Positions 50,956 to 56,647 are shown, numbered from the stretch's first letter. The stretch: 64,000 nucleotides of DNA from Candidatus Bathyarchaeota archaeon (GCA_963828195.1 CAWHDT010000007.1:128001-192000), one strand, 5' to 3'. Made by a program: numbers and translations. The notes: generated by a model not told the origin, from the letters alone.

Positions 50956-52200
50956 TTAAAGGACTTGAGCAGTATTAACTTGTGGCAATAACTTTGATTC
51001 TTCAAGAATCTTCTTGAATTCCTTATCTTTTAGCGATTCTTTTTTACCGTTTGCATAAACAGCTTTAACCTGCTTAACCACTGCTGACAAGGCATCATTG
51101 CTTGGGTAGTTGCCTGTTATTTCGATAATTTTATGTTTGACTATGCTTTTGCCAGATTGTTTGCCTATAGTTAAGTGTCGTACGTTACCAACTAGCTCGG
51201 GAGGATACGGTTCATAAGTCCAAGAGTCATTGAGGACGCCGCACGTGTGGATGCCTGATTCGTGTGCGAAGCCATAGTCACCCACGATGGCTTTGTTAAG
51301 TGGAACGACGAAGCCGGTTGCTTTGCTAATGAAGTCTGCCGCCTGTCTGAGCTTTTGAGTTTTTCCCTCGAATTTTTTGATACCGTGATGCAAGTACAGG
51401 TTGAGGACAACTTTCTCGGTTTCCGCATTACCTGCGCGCTCCCCAATGCCCAAATACGTTGTATTTAGGTAGATTTTGTCCCACACTCCTGACGCTGCAC
51501 GTATGGCTGCCATAGTGTTTCCTAAAGCGTTGCCTAAGTCGTCGTGGGCATGAATCTCCAACGCCTTTATTCGAGTTTCTTTCTTGAGTGCAATCACTTT
51601 AGCGGGAATGCCAATTGGCAAAGGTGCGTCCAACTCGGGAAGCCCTATCCCCACTGTATCACAAACACGGTAACACTCTGCACCAGCATCCGCCGCCGCG
51701 TTAACGAATTTCTTTTCGAAAGCCCAATCCGCACGGGTAGCGTCCTCACCGTGAACAAACGTTCGTAACCCATGAGTTTTAGCGGCATATTCTACCACAT
51801 CCACCACATTAGCTAAGAGTTCATCAGTTGTTTTATCAGGCCACTTTGCCTGCAAATGAATATAAGAAACTGGATGCGAGATGCCAACTTCCTGAAAGTC
51901 CAAGTCGATAGCGCTGTCAATATCTTTTTTGACTGCTCTGCACCAGCCAGCAACTCTGCAATCCAGCTTCATACGGTGGATGAGTTTCGCTGCTTTTTTG
52001 TCGGGTTCTTGATAATGAAACAGTTCGATTCGTTCAGCACCTATTTCGCAAAGCAACTGCGCGATTTTTGCGGCGTCTTTAGGTCTAGTAGCTAAGCCGG
52101 GCATTTGCATGCCATCGCGCAGGGTGGTGTCATCGATAATGGGTTCGGTTTTGAGGGCGGGCATTTTGAAGAAAAAGTCGTTCAGTTCCATGCTCATCAC
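50956..52200 (-). CDS. nifV: Homocitrate synthase-like DRE-TIM enzyme (NifV position; Re-citrate synthase-like insert)
   Basis: DTTLRDG, HAHDD.G, GIGERAGNA, HESGIH and GKQSG motifs; no IPMS regulatory domain; last gene of the nif operon. Confidence 0.65.
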   Translation of the reverse strand: MMSMELNDFFFKMPALKTEPIIDDTTLRDGMQMPGLATRPKDAAKIAQLLCEIGAERIELFHYQEPDKKAAKLIHRMKLDCRVAGWCRAVKKDIDSAIDLDFQEVGISHPVSYIHLQAKWPDKTTDELLANVVDVVEYAAKTHGLRTFVHGEDATRADWAFEKKFVNAAADAGAECYRVCDTVGIGLPELDAPLPIGIPAKVIALKKETRIKALEIHAHDDLGNALGNTMAAIRAASGVWDKIYLNTTYLGIGERAGNAETEKVVLNLYLHHGIKKFEGKTQKLRQAADFISKATGFVVPLNKAIVGDYGFAHESGIHTCGVLNDSWTYEPYPPELVGNVRHLTIGKQSGKSIVKHKIIEITGNYPSNDALSAVVKQVKAVYANGKKESLKDKEFKKILEESKLLPQVNTAQVL

Positions 52201-52207
52201 CTTGTGT

Positions 52208-53539
52208 TTATGCGTCTTTAGCGTCCATTATTGTGTTGACCAATGTATCCAGCAGTTGTAAGGAACCTCGGAAGCCAACCATGCTTCGTCTTTGGTAGCC
52301 GAATCGGTCGCTTTGCGGAAAGCCAACTCGAATAAGCGGTATGCCTTCGTCTTTGGAGATGTATTTGCCTTTACAATCGCCGATAATTAAGTCCACACGG
52401 GCTTCTTTGATTTTCTGATGTAGGTCATAGAGGTCGCCGCCAACGATTATATTCTGTTTCTCAGCGTCAACTCCGTACAATGTTGCTAGGGTCTGCATGT
52501 CTTGAGCAAACTGGCTGCCTTCAAGCGTTGTCATCACATGTACTGGCTGCATGCCAAGCTCGTAAACAAAACGGGTGATTCCTTGTACGATGTCGGGGTC
52601 GCCGAACACTGCGACTTTTGTGCCGAAGGTAATTTGGCTTGAATCAACTATGGCGTCAACTAGCAGGTCGCGTTCATCAATTAAAGATTCAGGCATGTTT
52701 TTCCCAGTCAGTGCGGTTAGGTTTGCAATGAAGGTTTCTGTGGATTCAACGCCGATTGGAAGATCCCCAAACTTGGCTGGCATGCTGTATTTTTCCTGCA
52801 GATAGTTTGCTGCGCCTTGCCCTTCATATTTGCAAAGTGGTATTGTTCCCTGCGAGTTTGAGCAGTCAGCAATTTCCTGGACTGTTGTTCCTCCACGGGG
52901 GAAATGTGGTTTAGGAAGACGCAGAGGTGCGTTGAGTGTTTGCGAGATATCGGTGAGGTATAGACCGGGGATGCCCATTTCTGCTAGGATATGTTTGATT
53001 TCTAAGACGTCGCCGGGGTTAAGCATGCCTGGAATAATGTTGACTTTGCCGTTGGGCTCTGTTTTTGGTTCAGCGAGCTGGGTGACGAGTGCTTTTATGG
53101 CATTGTCATATCCGATTACGTGGGTGCCGACGTAGCTGGGCGTGTGTATCCCAACTATTTTTGTGTGGCGCTCGTTGTTTTCGGATTTGAAGGCTTTAAT
53201 TATTCCGTGAATGTCATCGCCTGTTGTTTCGCTAAGGCAGGTGGTGATGACTGTGATTAATTCTGGGTGTTGACGGGCGATTATGTTGGATAATGCCAGT
53301 TTTAGGTTGATTGCGCCTCCAAAGATGGTTGCTTTCTCATGGAGAGAGGTGATGGCAACTTCTATGGGTTCGCGGAAGTGTCGGGACATCAAGTTGCGGG
53401 GATAGGTTGAGCAGCCCTGCGAGCCATGTATAAGCGGTACGCTACCATGAATGCCCAGAGTAGCCCAGATCGCACCGATAGGCTGGCACATACGTGGCGC
53501 GTTTATAGCGACACTTCTTTGTCTGTTAATTAGCACCAT
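52208..53539 (-). CDS. nifK: Nitrogenase component I beta chain
   Basis: MCQPIGA, HGSQGC, RHFREP and TTCLSET.GDD (three P-cluster Cys), GFP..DR; start refined to ATG 53539. Confidence 0.85.
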   Translation of the reverse strand: MVLINRQRSVAINAPRMCQPIGAIWATLGIHGSVPLIHGSQGCSTYPRNLMSRHFREPIEVAITSLHEKATIFGGAINLKLALSNIIARQHPELITVITTCLSETTGDDIHGIIKAFKSENNERHTKIVGIHTPSYVGTHVIGYDNAIKALVTQLAEPKTEPNGKVNIIPGMLNPGDVLEIKHILAEMGIPGLYLTDISQTLNAPLRLPKPHFPRGGTTVQEIADCSNSQGTIPLCKYEGQGAANYLQEKYSMPAKFGDLPIGVESTETFIANLTALTGKNMPESLIDERDLLVDAIVDSSQITFGTKVAVFGDPDIVQGITRFVYELGMQPVHVMTTLEGSQFAQDMQTLATLYGVDAEKQNIIVGGDLYDLHQKIKEARVDLIIGDCKGKYISKDEGIPLIRVGFPQSDRFGYQRRSMVGFRGSLQLLDTLVNTIMDAKDA

Positions 53540-53541
53540 AG

Positions 53542-54918: not shown

Positions 54919-55818
54919 CTACTTCACCCCAGATTCGCTAGAGCGACCAAAGCCACTGAAATGTGTGCCGCAGGTTTCCTCGCTAGGCACCCCCATGGCG
55001 TCTGCTCTGCATTGGACGCAGTTGTGAAACTGGAATAGCATGCCTTCGCATAGGTGGCGGATTCTTTGAATTTCCTGCAGAGATGGAGCTGGAATATTGG
55101 CGAATTTTGCTTGGGGAATCAGGGGCATAATGTTCATTATGTAAGCGCCCATGTCACGTACGGTTCTGGCTACGTCAACCACATGTTCTGAGTTTATGCC
55201 GGGAATGAATACCGAGTTAACTTTGACGACTATGCCTGCGTCAGCGGCGGCTCGTAATCCGTCGAGTTGTTTTTTGCTAAGGACCTCGAACGCTTTTCTG
55301 CCCATGTACGTCTTGTTTTGGTAGCGAACGAAAGAGTAAATCTGCTCGCCTACCGTGGGGTCTAATGCGTTGATTGTTATTGTGAGGGCTGAAACGCCTA
55401 CCTCTTTTAGTTGGGCAAGTTTTTCTGGTAGCAGCAATCCGTTTGTTGAAACGCAACGGGTTAAATGTGGAAATTCCTTTTTCACTTGTCGAAGAGTATC
55501 AAATGTAACGTCACTGCTAAGGGGGTCGCCTGGGCCAGCAATGCCTACGACACGCAGTCGCGGGTCTTTTTGCACTGCAAACCGCACTCGCTCCATCGCT
55601 TCTTCAGCCGTTATCACTTTGCTTGTAACGCCGGGACGGTTCTCGTTGGCACAGTCGTATTTACGAACACAATAGTTGCAGCCTATGTTACATGTTGATA
55701 CGACGGGAAGATGTACTCTGCCAAACTTGAAATGCGCTCCCGAACCGTAACAAGGATGCTCCTGCACTAGCTGAGAGCAAATCTTTTTGCGTATCTCAGA
55801 TTTTTCATAGCTAACCAT
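54919..55818 (-). CDS. nifB: Nitrogenase cofactor radical SAM protein NifB (single domain, no NifX)
   Basis: HPC, R.HLPV, CNIGCNYC.RK.DC.NE.RPG, AGPGD, STNG and C.QCRADA motifs. Confidence 0.93.
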   Translation of the reverse strand: MVSYEKSEIRKKICSQLVQEHPCYGSGAHFKFGRVHLPVVSTCNIGCNYCVRKYDCANENRPGVTSKVITAEEAMERVRFAVQKDPRLRVVGIAGPGDPLSSDVTFDTLRQVKKEFPHLTRCVSTNGLLLPEKLAQLKEVGVSALTITINALDPTVGEQIYSFVRYQNKTYMGRKAFEVLSKKQLDGLRAAADAGIVVKVNSVFIPGINSEHVVDVARTVRDMGAYIMNIMPLIPQAKFANIPAPSLQEIQRIRHLCEGMLFQFHNCVQCRADAMGVPSEETCGTHFSGFGRSSESGVK

Positions 55819-55828
55819 CTTTTGTCAC

Positions 55829-56647
55829 CTAGTCCACGATGCCGAATTCCCGCATTAAACTCTCTAATTCGTCTATACTGATCGGTGTGGGAATCGTAAA
55901 CACCTCGTTTTTCACTATTTTGCATGCTAGACTTCTATACACGCCAGCTTGCGCCGCTGTAGGATCAAAATCAATGACTGTTTTTCTGTGTATCTCAGCC
56001 TTCTGCACTAAGTTATCTCTTGGAATGAAGTGGATTAAGCGGCTGTTGATGCGTTTTGCGAATTCTGTTACTAGGGCTTCTTCGTTTTCGACTTTTCTCG
56101 AGTTACAGATGATTCCGCCTAAACGGGTTTGTCCCTGTTCTGCGAATTTTTTGATGCCTTTGCAGATGTTGTTTGCCGCGTATAGTGACATATACTCGCC
56201 TGATGCTACAATGTAGATTTCCTGCGCGTACCCTTCACGTATGGGCATTGCGAAGCCTCCGCAGACCACATCGCCTAGGACATCATAAAATACGAAGTCT
56301 AAATCTTCTTTATACATGCCTAATTCATGTAGTGTTTGAATTGAAGTAATGATTCCTCTGCCGCCACAGCCTACTCCAGGTTCTGGGCCGCCTGATTCGA
56401 CGCAGGTGACGCCGCCAAAACCTGTTGCTGAGATTAGCTCTGGCGATACCTGGCCTCCGCCGTCGCGAAGAACGTCCAATACTGTGGATTGCCGTTTTCC
56501 ATTTAAAAGTAAACGTGTGCAGTCTGCTTTTGGATCGCAACCAAGAAGCAGGATTTTTTTTCCCATCTCAGCTAACGCTGAGACTGTGTTTTGGGTTGTT
56601 GTGCTTTTTCCTATTCCACCTTTTCCGTATATTGCAATTTGTCTCAT
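55829..56647 (-). CDS. nifH: Nitrogenase iron protein
   Basis: [31 protein letters not shown] and [14 protein letters not shown] motifs. Confidence 0.96.

What the first reader, a model, noticed from the sequence alone, without database searches (positions are those of the whole stretch)
50956..56647. Minimal nifH-B-D-K-V nitrogenase operon in a probable Bathyarchaeon, without nifEN, nifI or vnf/anfG
Seen: five tightly coupled genes. NifD keeps the P-cluster Cys, the Cys275 and His442 cofactor-ligand equivalents and GVSQSLGHH; NifK keeps three P-cluster Cys. D and K are only 2 nt apart, so there is no G-subunit gene, and no PII-like nifI genes follow nifH. Known: methanogen operons are nifH-I1-I2-D-K-E-N, whereas nifHBDK without EN is known from Roseiflexus-type Chloroflexota. 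The NifD motifs (TIPGD.TERGC, CARSA, GGPR.WHW, NGH) resemble group III/Vnf-like sequences rather than Cfb/Nfl paralogs. Inference: a scaffold-independent nitrogenase of unresolved metal type in a non-methanogen archaeal lineage.
Basis: partly seen in the sequence, partly recalled or inferred. Interest (0 to 1): 0.85.

Follow-up and report, generated by a model that had tools for sequence, protein, structure and literature searches.

The report
Bathyarchaeal nifHBDK(V) nitrogenase cluster, already published
This is a real, compact nitrogenase gene cluster without the usual NifEN scaffold genes in a soil or peat Bathyarchaeon, but the same cluster in the same archaeal lineage was already described in a 2024 paper.

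Summary
Five co-oriented, tightly packed minus-strand genes at 50956-56647 encode NifH, a single-domain NifB, NifD, NifK and a homocitrate-synthase-like protein. NifD and NifK keep all cluster ligands. The genome is 96% complete and has no other Oxidored_nitro gene, so nifEN was not found. It also has no VnfG/AnfG and no P-II protein. It does carry modE-modA-modB about 58 kb away.

The same H-B-D-K-V order occurs in 13 related Bathyarchaeia loci. NifD branches inside true nitrogenases, at the base of the lineage holding the Methanocaldococcus-like and Vnf sequences, far from NifE and methylthio-alkane reductase.

The most likely function is a Mo-nitrogenase that matures FeMo-co on NifDK itself, as shown in vitro for Roseiflexus NifHBDK.

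The core claim is not new. PMC11697101 (December 2024) reports nifHBDK without nifEN in Bathy-6 Bathyarchaeia.

Three smaller points were not found in that paper's main text:
- The nif-linked fifth gene is a duplicate of a native Bathy-6 gene.
- P-II was not found in this genome or in 4 of 5 relatives.
- In this genome alone, nifD starts with ATA instead of ATG.

No activity or expression data exist.

The parts
55829..56647 (-). nifH, nitrogenase Fe protein (272 aa)
   Evidence: TIGR01287 scores 433.3 bits, above the 394.35 cut-off. PF00142 scores 397 bits. Solved NifH chains score 363-394 bits, against 272.8 for the Fe protein of methylthio-alkane reductase entry 9fmg and 160 for BchL/ChlL. 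The P-loop and both cluster Cys are aligned. It is the only full NifH-family gene in the genome.
54919..55818 (-). nifB, single-domain radical-SAM NifB (299 aa) without a NifX-like C-terminal domain
   Evidence: TIGR01290 scores 322.3 bits over model positions 7-278 of 441. Solved single-domain NifB chains 7jmb, 7bi7 and 6y1x score 301-303 bits over nearly the full length, with the CxxxCxxC and C-terminal CxxC motifs aligned. It is the only nifB match in the genome.
53542..54918 (-). nifD, nitrogenase alpha subunit (458 aa if started at ATA 54916-54918; 417 aa from ATG 54795)
   Evidence: TIGR01862 scores 570.4 against 486.05. The best solved match is M. infernus NifD 9spz_A at 521.5 bits, ahead of VnfD (441), AnfD (418), Mo NifD (372-387), NifE (273-308) and MarD (121). 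All cluster ligands are kept. The N-terminus aligns from residue 1 with 13 relatives that start with ATG.
52208..53539 (-). nifK, nitrogenase beta subunit (443 aa)
   Evidence: Solved matches: 9spz_B 423.6 bits, 9p1x_B 404.6, 1mio_B 366.5, NifN 197.5, MarK 61.8. The three P-cluster Cys are aligned. The ATG lies 2 nt after the nifD stop.
50956..52200 (-). nif-linked HMGL-family gene, putative homocitrate synthase (NifV role), 414 aa
   Evidence: It carries HMGL-like and HCS_D2 domains. It scores below all NCBIfam cut-offs; nifV_homocitr gives 273.1 against 462.9. The best solved match is a homocitrate synthase, 6ktq, at 181 bits, against 130 for an isopropylmalate synthase. The gene follows nifK in all 7 loci checked by order. 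The nif-linked copies group together in a tree.
56753..56790 (-). putative nifH promoter: half-site TCACAA followed by a TTTAAAT box, about 112 nt upstream of the nifH ATG
   Evidence: The block is conserved upstream of nifH in all 7 Bathy loci aligned. This is sequence similarity only; no transcript ends are known.
54916..54921 (-). nifB stop (TAG) directly abutting the nifD start codon, which is ATA here
   Evidence: Read. The start is ATG in 13 of 13 related loci, and a stop codon abuts it in 12 of 13. Short-read contigs of runs X1 and X2 cover the site with 0 differences from the window.

Best explanation
The cluster encodes a Mo-dependent nitrogenase of the early-branching, NifEN-independent kind, carried by a Bathy-6 (GTDB family UBA233-type) Bathyarchaeon.

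Proposed mechanism:
- NifB makes the [8Fe-9S-C] precursor.
- The precursor is handed directly to apo-NifDK. There, with NifH, molybdate and homocitrate, it is finished into FeMo-co.
- The homocitrate comes from the nif-linked synthase paralog.
- NifH then drives ATP-dependent N2 reduction.
- The five genes form one operon from an archaeal BRE/TATA-type promoter. The tight gene junctions, especially the nifB stop abutting the nifD start, suggest translational coupling.
- Without any P-II protein, control must be transcriptional or absent.

Shown here: gene content, ligand conservation, phylogenetic placement, no nifEN, vnfG/anfG or P-II gene found in the genome, presence of mod genes, and conservation of the cluster in relatives.

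Inferred: Mo as the heterometal, on-NifDK cofactor maturation (by analogy with Roseiflexus), the homocitrate synthase activity of the fifth gene, operon structure, and any activity in vivo.
For: - Family scores and ligands identify true NifH, NifB, NifD and NifK.
- Only two Oxidored_nitro genes, one NifH and one NifB occur in a 96.1% complete genome. No AnfG/VnfG was found.
- modE-like, modA (86.4 bits against 62.5), modB (187.9 against 182.6) and an ABC ATPase lie on the same contig at C7:118.8-121.6 kb.
- In the NifD tree, 14 Bathy rows are monophyletic (100/100). They are sister to a clade of P0001, three VnfD and one Vnf-like row (100/98). This group is separate from canonical NifD, from a His-less clade and from NifE. 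It matches the position Garcia et al. give to the nifEN-less Clfx clade, which also has the nifHBDK order.
- The Vnf-like motif GGPR.WHW is shared with representative P0001 and with the solved M. infernus NifD chain 9spz_A. That enzyme needs Mo for diazotrophic growth and holds FeMo-co.
- Roseiflexus NifH, NifB and apo-NifDK, with homocitrate, molybdate and SAM, give an active Mo-nitrogenase without NifEN in vitro.
- The H-B-D-K-V order is conserved in 6 of 6 named Bathy loci. NifD was found in 7 further genomes of the same family.
- PMC11697101 independently reports the same cluster and the same reading.
Against: - There is no activity, expression or isotope evidence for any Bathyarchaeon. 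No RNA run holding the stretch was listed.
[quoted passage not shown] Another paper notes that Roseiflexus castenholzii has no verified N2 fixation.
- In this genome the nifD start codon is ATA and its Shine-Dalgarno reads GGGGTGA instead of GAGGTGA. NifD synthesis may therefore be weak, or may start at Met42.
- NifK, NifB and the fifth gene fall below the NCBIfam equivalog cut-offs.
- The fifth gene is about 75% identical to a housekeeping paralog of unknown specificity, so its homocitrate synthase role rests on context.
- My tree held no sequence known to be Clfx. The tool also warned that P0001 and Vnf are long branches that meet.
- mod genes also serve other Mo/W enzymes.
Confidence: 0.68

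Rival explanations
1. The cluster encodes a nitrogenase-like enzyme that does not fix N2 in vivo. It could be a 'proto-nitrogenase' with an incompletely matured cofactor (L-cluster-like or Fe-only-like), used for another reduction or of marginal activity.
For: - Garcia et al. raised this possibility for nifEN-less lineages.
- A review says diazotrophic growth without NifEN is still undemonstrated.
- Roseiflexus castenholzii has no verified fixation.
- The trait is patchy: 8 of 401 sampled class genomes, and 5 of 40 other genomes of the same genus.
Against: - Every residue that ligates the P-cluster and cofactor, plus the Gln/His pair of the substrate site, is kept across 14 Bathy sequences at 76-96% identity. 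This argues for purifying selection on a nitrogenase-type site.
- A dedicated homocitrate-synthase-like gene is kept in the operon.
- Roseiflexus proteins do reduce N2 in vitro.
Confidence: 0.2
2. It is a V- or Fe-only-type (alternative) nitrogenase.
For: - NifD scores higher against solved VnfD (441 bits) and AnfD (414-418) than against Mo NifD of bacteria (372-387).
- CARSA, GGPR.WHW and NGH resemble VnfD.
- TIGR01284 alt_nitrog_alph scores above its cut-off.
Against: - No G subunit is present in the cluster or genome.
- The VNFD and ANFD equivalog scores are about half their cut-offs.
- The same motifs occur in M. infernus NifD, which is Mo-dependent and holds FeMo-co.
- The Bathy clade lies outside the Vnf clade.
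- The active-site classifier of Garcia et al. called all the uncharacterised basal clades Nif-like.
Confidence: 0.05
3. In this particular genome the system is decaying. The ATG-to-ATA change at the nifD start, together with a weakened ribosome-binding site, has silenced or truncated NifD.
For: - The start is ATA here but ATG in 13 of 13 related loci.
- The change is seen in independent short-read contigs with 0 differences.
- The next ATG would remove 41 N-terminal residues.
Against: - All five reading frames are intact and 95-98% identical to L007, so any inactivation is very recent.
- ATA is a permitted, if rare, start codon in table 11.
- A ribosome terminating at the abutting TAG could reinitiate there. 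This is an inference.
Confidence: 0.15
4. The cluster is a binning or assembly artefact, with bacterial DNA placed in an archaeal bin.
For: An earlier report of a nitrogenase in a Bathyarchaeia MAG was traced to short contaminant contigs.
Against: - The cluster lies at 179-185 kb of a 335-kb contig.
- It is found in 13 related loci, among them single-contig genomes of 2.7 and 3.0 Mb.
- The nearest non-Bathy NifD is at most 49% identical.
- The fifth gene is a paralog of a native Bathy-6 gene.
Confidence: 0.02

Closest known systems
Bathy-6 Bathyarchaeia nifHBDK locus (PMC11697101, ISME Commun 2024)
   Same: The lineage is the same: L011, a MAG titled Bathy6-F36_MillC, carries an 81% identical NifD. 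The H-B-D-K order, the absence of nifE/nifN, the conserved NifD active-site residues and the Mo-nitrogenase reading are also the same.
   Different: The window is another genome of the group. In the paper's main text I found no mention of nifV or homocitrate, or of P-II (0 occurrences each). The ATA start of nifD is specific to this genome.
Roseiflexus sp. RS-1 NifHBDK (Clfx clade; PMC11573651, PMC7216921)
   Same: It has the nifH-nifB-nifD-nifK order, no nifEN, and a basal position in the uncharacterised/Vnf/Anf lineage.
   Different: It is a thermophilic Chloroflexota bacterium, whereas the runs that hold this stretch are soil and bog metagenomes. 'nifV' has 0 occurrences in that paper's main text, and homocitrate was added to its assays. 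I had no Clfx sequence to place in my tree.
Methanocaldococcus infernus NifDK (PDB 9spz; bioRxiv 10.1101/2025.10.10.681579)
   Same: It is the best solved match to both NifD (521.5 bits) and NifK (423.6 bits). It shares the GGPR.WHW motif and the ligand set, and it is Mo-dependent with FeMo-co.
   Different: It is a hyperthermophilic methanogen. From, most taxa of its clade (F-Mc) have nifE but not nifN. The Bathy clade is a separate branch.
Azotobacter vinelandii VnfDGK (PDB 5n6y)
   Same: It is the second-best solved match to NifD (441 bits). It shares CARSA, GGPR.WHW and NGH.
   Different: It needs VnfG, for which no match was found in this genome. The VNFD model scores 434.9 against a cut-off of 823.1.

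Membership tests
Nitrogenase proper (NifHDK) | Fe protein with a P-loop and two [4Fe-4S] cysteines | tested here: met
   TIGR01287 scores above its cut-off. [17 protein letters not shown] and VVCGGFAMP align to solved NifH.
Nitrogenase proper (NifHDK) | Alpha subunit with three P-cluster Cys plus the cofactor ligands equivalent to A. vinelandii Cys275 and His442 | tested here: met
   Cys47, Cys73, Cys136, Cys254 and His419 are conserved in the Bathy rows shown (6 of 14) and align with VnfD, NifD and 9spz. One search names Cys-275 and His-442 as the ligands.
Nitrogenase proper (NifHDK) | Beta subunit with three P-cluster Cys | tested here: met
   Cys18, Cys43 and Cys101 align with the same positions of 9spz_B and 9p1x_B.
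Nitrogenase proper (NifHDK) | Canonical minimal set nifHDKENB: nifE and nifN present | tested here: not met
   Only two PF00148 matches occur in the 96.1% complete genome. The same holds in 4 of 5 nif-bearing relatives.
Nitrogenase proper (NifHDK) | Reduces N2 to NH3 | not testable with these tools
   No culture, RNA or isotope data are available. No RNA holder was listed.
NifEN-independent nifHBDK type (Clfx-like) | Gene order nifH-nifB-nifD-nifK | tested here: met
.
NifEN-independent nifHBDK type (Clfx-like) | Branches at the base of the uncharacterised/Vnf/Anf lineage, with Clfx | tested here: inconclusive
   The basal position in that lineage is recovered (100/98). No Clfx sequence was available to me. 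PMC11697101 reports clustering with Clfx in a supplementary figure that I could not see.
NifEN-independent nifHBDK type (Clfx-like) | FeMo-co assembled on NifDK with only NifB and NifH | not testable with these tools
   This has been shown only for Roseiflexus proteins in vitro.
V- or Fe-only nitrogenase | G (delta) subunit gene | tested here: not met
   The D-K gap is 2 nt. PF03139 has 0 matches in the genome, while the control rings in M. acetivorans.
V- or Fe-only nitrogenase | VNFD/ANFD and vnfK/anfK equivalog scores | tested here: not met
   Scores against cut-offs: 434.9 against 823.1; 419.5 against 873.8; 401.5 against 873.95; 357.8 against 853.85.
NifEN scaffold | nifE/nifN equivalog scores, and a NifE-type site lacking the His442 equivalent | tested here: not met
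   nifE scores 442.6 against 505.1 and nifN 290.2 against 326.8. The NifE rows in my alignment have no His at the column where the Bathy NifD rows shown have one. NifE forms a separate clade.
Methylthio-alkane reductase / other nitrogenase-like (group IV) systems | Closer to MarHDK than to NifHDK | tested here: not met
   Against 9fmg/9d9u chains, NifD scores 121 bits, NifK 62 and NifH 273. Against nitrogenases the scores are 521, 424 and 394. The entry is identified from the listing.
NifV homocitrate synthase | TIGR02660 equivalog score | tested here: not met
   It scores 273.1 against 462.9. Isopropylmalate, citramalate and homocitrate family models score similarly.
NifV homocitrate synthase | Condenses acetyl-CoA with 2-oxoglutarate | not testable with these tools
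   The best solved match is a homocitrate synthase, and the gene is conserved after nifK. Specificity residues were not examined.

The most novel reading that the evidence does not exclude
After horizontal acquisition of nifHBDK, Bathy-6 archaea duplicated one of their own short isopropylmalate/homocitrate-synthase-family genes and wired the copy into the operon as a dedicated homocitrate supplier. The result would be a self-contained five-gene Mo-nitrogenase that works in mesophilic soils and peat. It would do so without NifEN, without NifX-type carriers in the operon and without any P-II regulation. That would make it the first NifEN-less system to support real diazotrophy in vivo, and the smallest natural nif module.
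Probability: 0.3. Interest if true: 0.65.

Novelty: already known. Interest (0 to 1): 0.35.

Why it matters
A nitrogenase that needs no NifEN scaffold bears on how the enzyme evolved, and it is attractive as a minimal module for engineering. Bathyarchaeia are abundant in anoxic soils, peat and sediments, so real N2 fixation by them would add an unrecognised archaeal input to nitrogen budgets outside the methanogens. That case was already made in print in 2024.

This window adds three things:
- An independent confirmation in another near-complete genome.
- Evidence that the operon's fifth gene was recruited from a native paralog.
- The finding that P-II control appears to be missing in this genome and in 4 of 5 relatives.

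Function in vivo is still untested.

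Tried and rejected
- **Naming representatives.** I therefore could not name representatives P0001, P0002 and the others, and could not tell whether any of them is a Roseiflexus/Clfx sequence. I labelled 20 representatives with NCBIfam models instead. I did not try search for homologous proteins.
- **Clfx reference sequence.** It returned no Chloroflexota, so sisterhood with Clfx is not tested here.
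- **P0002.** It is 48% identical to NifD and the second-best hit. It looked like a candidate close relative, but it falls in a clade that lacks the cofactor His, so it is not a nitrogenase alpha subunit.
- **NrpR-type operator.** GGAA-N6-TTCC (motif recalled) was not found in the 330 nt upstream of nifH in 7 loci.
- **Palindrome as regulon marker.** The palindrome TTGTGA-N-TCACAA seen upstream of nifH in L010-L012 has 0 strict matches in this genome against about 1.5 expected, so no regulon could be defined.
- **Context of the native paralog.** The neighbours of the native paralog of the fifth gene are ribosomal protein L15e, RNase P p30 and 2-oxoacid:ferredoxin oxidoreductase. They say nothing about its function.
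- **Expression.** No RNA holder was listed. Parts of the stretch without cover in the contig runs are not interpreted.
- **NifK and NifH trees.** None were built. Their placement rests on HMM and solved-structure scores only.
- **Supplements of PMC11697101.** Figs S8 and S9 and the tables were closed. They may show the fifth gene and the Clfx tree.

Full report
**What is there**

The window is G000:C7:128001-192000. The genome has 2.83 Mb in 9 contigs and is 96.1% complete with 3.5% contamination. On the minus strand, 50956-56647 holds five ORFs.

Pfam and NCBIfam identify them as follows:
- NifH: TIGR01287 scores 433.3 against a cut-off of 394.35.
- NifB: a 299-aa protein consisting only of the radical-SAM core. 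TIGR01290 scores 322.3 and matches model positions 7-278 of 441.
- A nitrogenase alpha subunit: TIGR01862 scores 570.4 against 486.05. The nifD, nifE, VNFD and ANFD equivalogs are all below cut-off.
- A beta subunit: vnfK 401.5, nifK 365.5, nifN 290.2, all below cut-off.
- An HMGL-like/HCS_D2 protein.

The spacers are 10, 0, 2 and 7 nt.

Reading the DNA shows that nifD is open from the codon right after the nifB TAG. The 41 residues upstream of the first ATG form the typical NifD/VnfD N-terminus. The first codon is ATA.

**Ligands**

Alignments to solved structures and to representatives show the following residues:
- NifD: Cys47, Cys73 and Cys136 for the P-cluster; Gln173 and His177 in GVSQSLGHH; Cys254 and His419 as cofactor ligands.
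- NifK: Cys18, Cys43 and Cys101.

The A. vinelandii numbers Cys275 and His442 are confirmed as the ligands. The other A. vinelandii numbers are recalled.

NifB aligns over nearly its whole length with solved single-domain NifB chains at about 303 bits.

**What it is not**

NifD scores against solved chains:

| Solved chain | Bits |
|---|---|
| 9spz_A | 521.5 |
| VnfD | 441 |
| 9p1x_A | 435 |
| AnfD | 414-418 |
| bacterial Mo NifD | 372-387 |
| NifE | 273-308 |
| 9d9u/9fmg alpha chain | 121 |

NifK gives 424 and 405 against 9spz_B and 9p1x_B, 197.5 against NifN and 62 against the 9d9u/9fmg beta-like chain.

Paper searches link the entries as follows. 9spz belongs to the Methanocaldococcus infernus nitrogenase (preprint listing and passages). 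9p1x belongs to a methanogen nitrogenase-PII complex (listing only). 9fmg belongs to methylthio-alkane reductase (listing only).

No AnfG/VnfG match exists in the genome.

**Genome inventory**

- Oxidored_nitro: 2 matches, D and K, so no nifEN.
- NifH family: 1 full match.
- nifB: 1 match.
- P-II: 0 matches, while the control rings in 13 of 14 genomes.
- Amt: 1 match.
- Stand-alone NifX-like domain protein: 1, on C3.
- On the same contig, about 58 kb from nif, lie a modE-like gene, modA and modB (both above cut-off) and an ABC ATPase. A WtpA-like system lies on C3.
- Among five nif-bearing relatives, four have only D and K, and four have no P-II match.

**Relatives and taxonomy**

A scan of one genome per species returned 23 loci.
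- Six are at 80-96% NifD identity, and all are titled Bathyarchaeota, Bathyarchaeia or uncultured archaeon.
- Sixteen are Bacillota at 38-41%.
- One is a Desulfobacterales hit that later grouped with NifE.

All six Bathy loci keep the H-B-D-K-V order.

In 401 sampled genomes of the class, 8 including this one have the NifD. All lie in one family: 7 of 103 other genomes there, against 0 of 297 elsewhere. Two genera are involved, with 5 of 40 and 2 of 12.

Two of these genomes are identical in NifD to named records L010 and L012. This ties the unnamed family to Bathyarchaeia. L011 is a 'Bathy6' MAG of PMC11697101.

**Tree**

The tree has 42 rows:
- 14 Bathy NifD sequences.
- 7 of the 16 Bacillota loci (L022 was dropped for a 991-aa ORF).
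- The Desulfobacterales hit.
- 20 of the 150 best representatives, namely the full-length ones among the top 23, labelled by NCBIfam.

The results were:
- The Bathy rows form one clade (100/100).
- They are sister to P0001 plus the three VnfD and one Vnf-like row (100/98).
- Canonical NifD forms the other nitrogenase branch (99/95).
- A clade of six unclassified sequences lacking the cofactor His lies outside, as do the NifE sequences.

The tool warned that P0001 and Vnf are long branches that meet. The topology agrees with Garcia et al. (passages), who place the nifEN-less, nifHBDK-ordered Clfx clade at the base of the lineage leading to F-Mc, Mb-Mc, Vnf and Anf. I had no sequence known to be Clfx.

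**Mechanism**

The best-supported model is taken from Roseiflexus sp. RS-1 (passages). There, NifH, NifB and apo-NifDK, with homocitrate, molybdate and SAM, yield an enzyme that reduces N2, acetylene and protons. It needs no NifEN, prefers Mo and is sensitive to W.

GGPR.WHW also occurs in M. infernus NifD. That enzyme needs molybdate for diazotrophic growth and carries FeMo-co.

**Prior publication**

PMC11697101 (passages) reports all of the following:
- nifHBDK in a closed Bathy-6 genome and several MAGs.
- Conserved NifD active-site residues.
- No nifE or nifN in any MAG.
- Clustering with Clfx.
- Probable acquisition by the Bathy-6 ancestor.
- A claim to be the first confident nitrogenase cluster in Bathyarchaeia and in a non-methanogen archaeon.

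Searches for later work found no experimental follow-up. A 2026 review does not mention Bathyarchaeia (0 occurrences).

(a) The fifth gene. The genome has five HMGL-family genes. Two are long LeuA-type genes above cut-off and three are short. The nif-linked copy is 75% identical to one at C5:213274-214533.

Proteins 68-79% identical to it occur in 35 of 120 other genomes of the family. These include G038, G094 and G102, which had no NifD match. Four of five nif-bearing relatives have two copies.

In a 32-row tree the 12 nif-linked copies fall on one side of a branch. Support is 70/99, and 74% of 200 bootstrap trees agree, although the bootstrap had not settled. The nif-linked copies sit close to the native copies, with backbone forks unresolved.

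This fits a single duplication of a native gene into the operon. 'nifV' and 'homocitrate' have 0 occurrences in the main text of PMC11697101.

(b) The start codon of nifD. It is ATG in 13 of 13 related loci (11 distinct sequences), with a stop codon abutting it in 12 of 13. Here it is ATA.

Contigs of two runs cover the site with 0 differences: X2 at 54826-55011, and X1 at 54906-55109 (the site lies only 10 letters from that contig's end). Either run may be the source sample.

(c) Promoter. A block consisting of TCACAA, a short spacer and a TTTAAA box is conserved upstream of nifH in all 7 loci.

**Verdict**

The observation and the interpretation are both sound. The system is a member of an already published group. 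Function in vivo remains unproven.

Noticed in passing
window 54916-54921 (-): The nifD start codon is ATA and its Shine-Dalgarno reads GGGGTGA. All 13 related loci have ATG, and the six named loci shown have GAGGTGA-like sites. Short-read contigs of two runs agree with the window.
   Followed up: yes
window 50956-52200 (-); G000:C5:213274-214533 (L037): The nif-linked synthase gene has a 75% identical paralog elsewhere in the genome. Orthologs of that paralog occur in many relatives that lack nifD. The nif-linked copies group together in a tree, which suggests recruitment by duplication.
   Followed up: yes
whole genome G000; G324, G347, G368, G346: No P-II (GlnB/GlnK/NifI) gene was found in this 96% complete genome or in four of five nif-bearing relatives, two of which are single-contig genomes. 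One Amt gene is present in this genome.
   Followed up: partly
window 58303-58334 (+) and ORF 58366-58542 (+): A 26-nt block matches the putative nifH promoter at 25 of 26 positions (TGAACAAATCACAAC-N-ACCTTTAAAT). It lies about 1.5 kb away on the other strand, in front of a 58-aa ORF with no family match. That ORF is 86% identical in L007. The two may be co-regulated.
   Followed up: partly
window 57028-57525 (-) and 57548-57961 (-): Two small putative regulators lie directly upstream of nifH on the same strand. One is a 165-aa ORF with a weak ribbon-helix-helix match (E 0.004, below cut-off). The other is an Lrp/AsnC-family protein. They are shared only with the closest relative, L007, and not with the other five loci. 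The 152-aa ORF on the opposite strand (56933-57391) is probably a shadow of the first.
   Followed up: partly
L010, L011, L012, about 60-90 nt upstream of nifH: An inverted repeat of the form TTGTGA-N(3-5)-TCACAA sits just upstream of the TATA-like box. Only the right half is kept in the window. There is no strict copy anywhere in this genome.
   Followed up: partly
L070 1570-5116, L071 871-4399, L072 1414-4966 (G368, closed 3.04-Mb genome of the same genus): One search found three extra Oxidored_nitro gene pairs. In the two loci scanned with Pfam (L070, L071), the first gene is a NifH-Oxidored_nitro fusion of about 740 aa and the second is another Oxidored_nitro protein. In L070 the pair lies beside CbiZ and a periplasmic binding protein; in L071 it lies beside an ABC ATPase. 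L072 has a matching 747-aa plus 447-aa ORF pair that was not scanned. These are nitrogenase-like systems of unknown function. They are absent from the window's genome.
   Followed up: partly
L012 12305-13003 (+): A second, shorter NifB-like radical-SAM gene (232 aa, 47% identical to NifB) follows the fifth gene in this relative. Tungsten-type aldehyde:ferredoxin oxidoreductase genes lie upstream. Flanks of the cluster differ between genomes.
   Followed up: no
representatives P0002, P0011, P0012, P0016, P0017, P0018: This is a clade of NifD/NifE-like proteins, up to 48% identical to NifD. They keep the P-cluster Cys and the Cys275 equivalent but lack the His442 equivalent (FPQ instead of NGH). 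They branch outside the NifD rows in the tree.
   Followed up: no
L040 (G349): In this relative the codon before the nifD ATG is TAT, not a stop. nifB and nifD may therefore be arranged differently or fused there. The assembly is fragmented (370 contigs).
   Followed up: no
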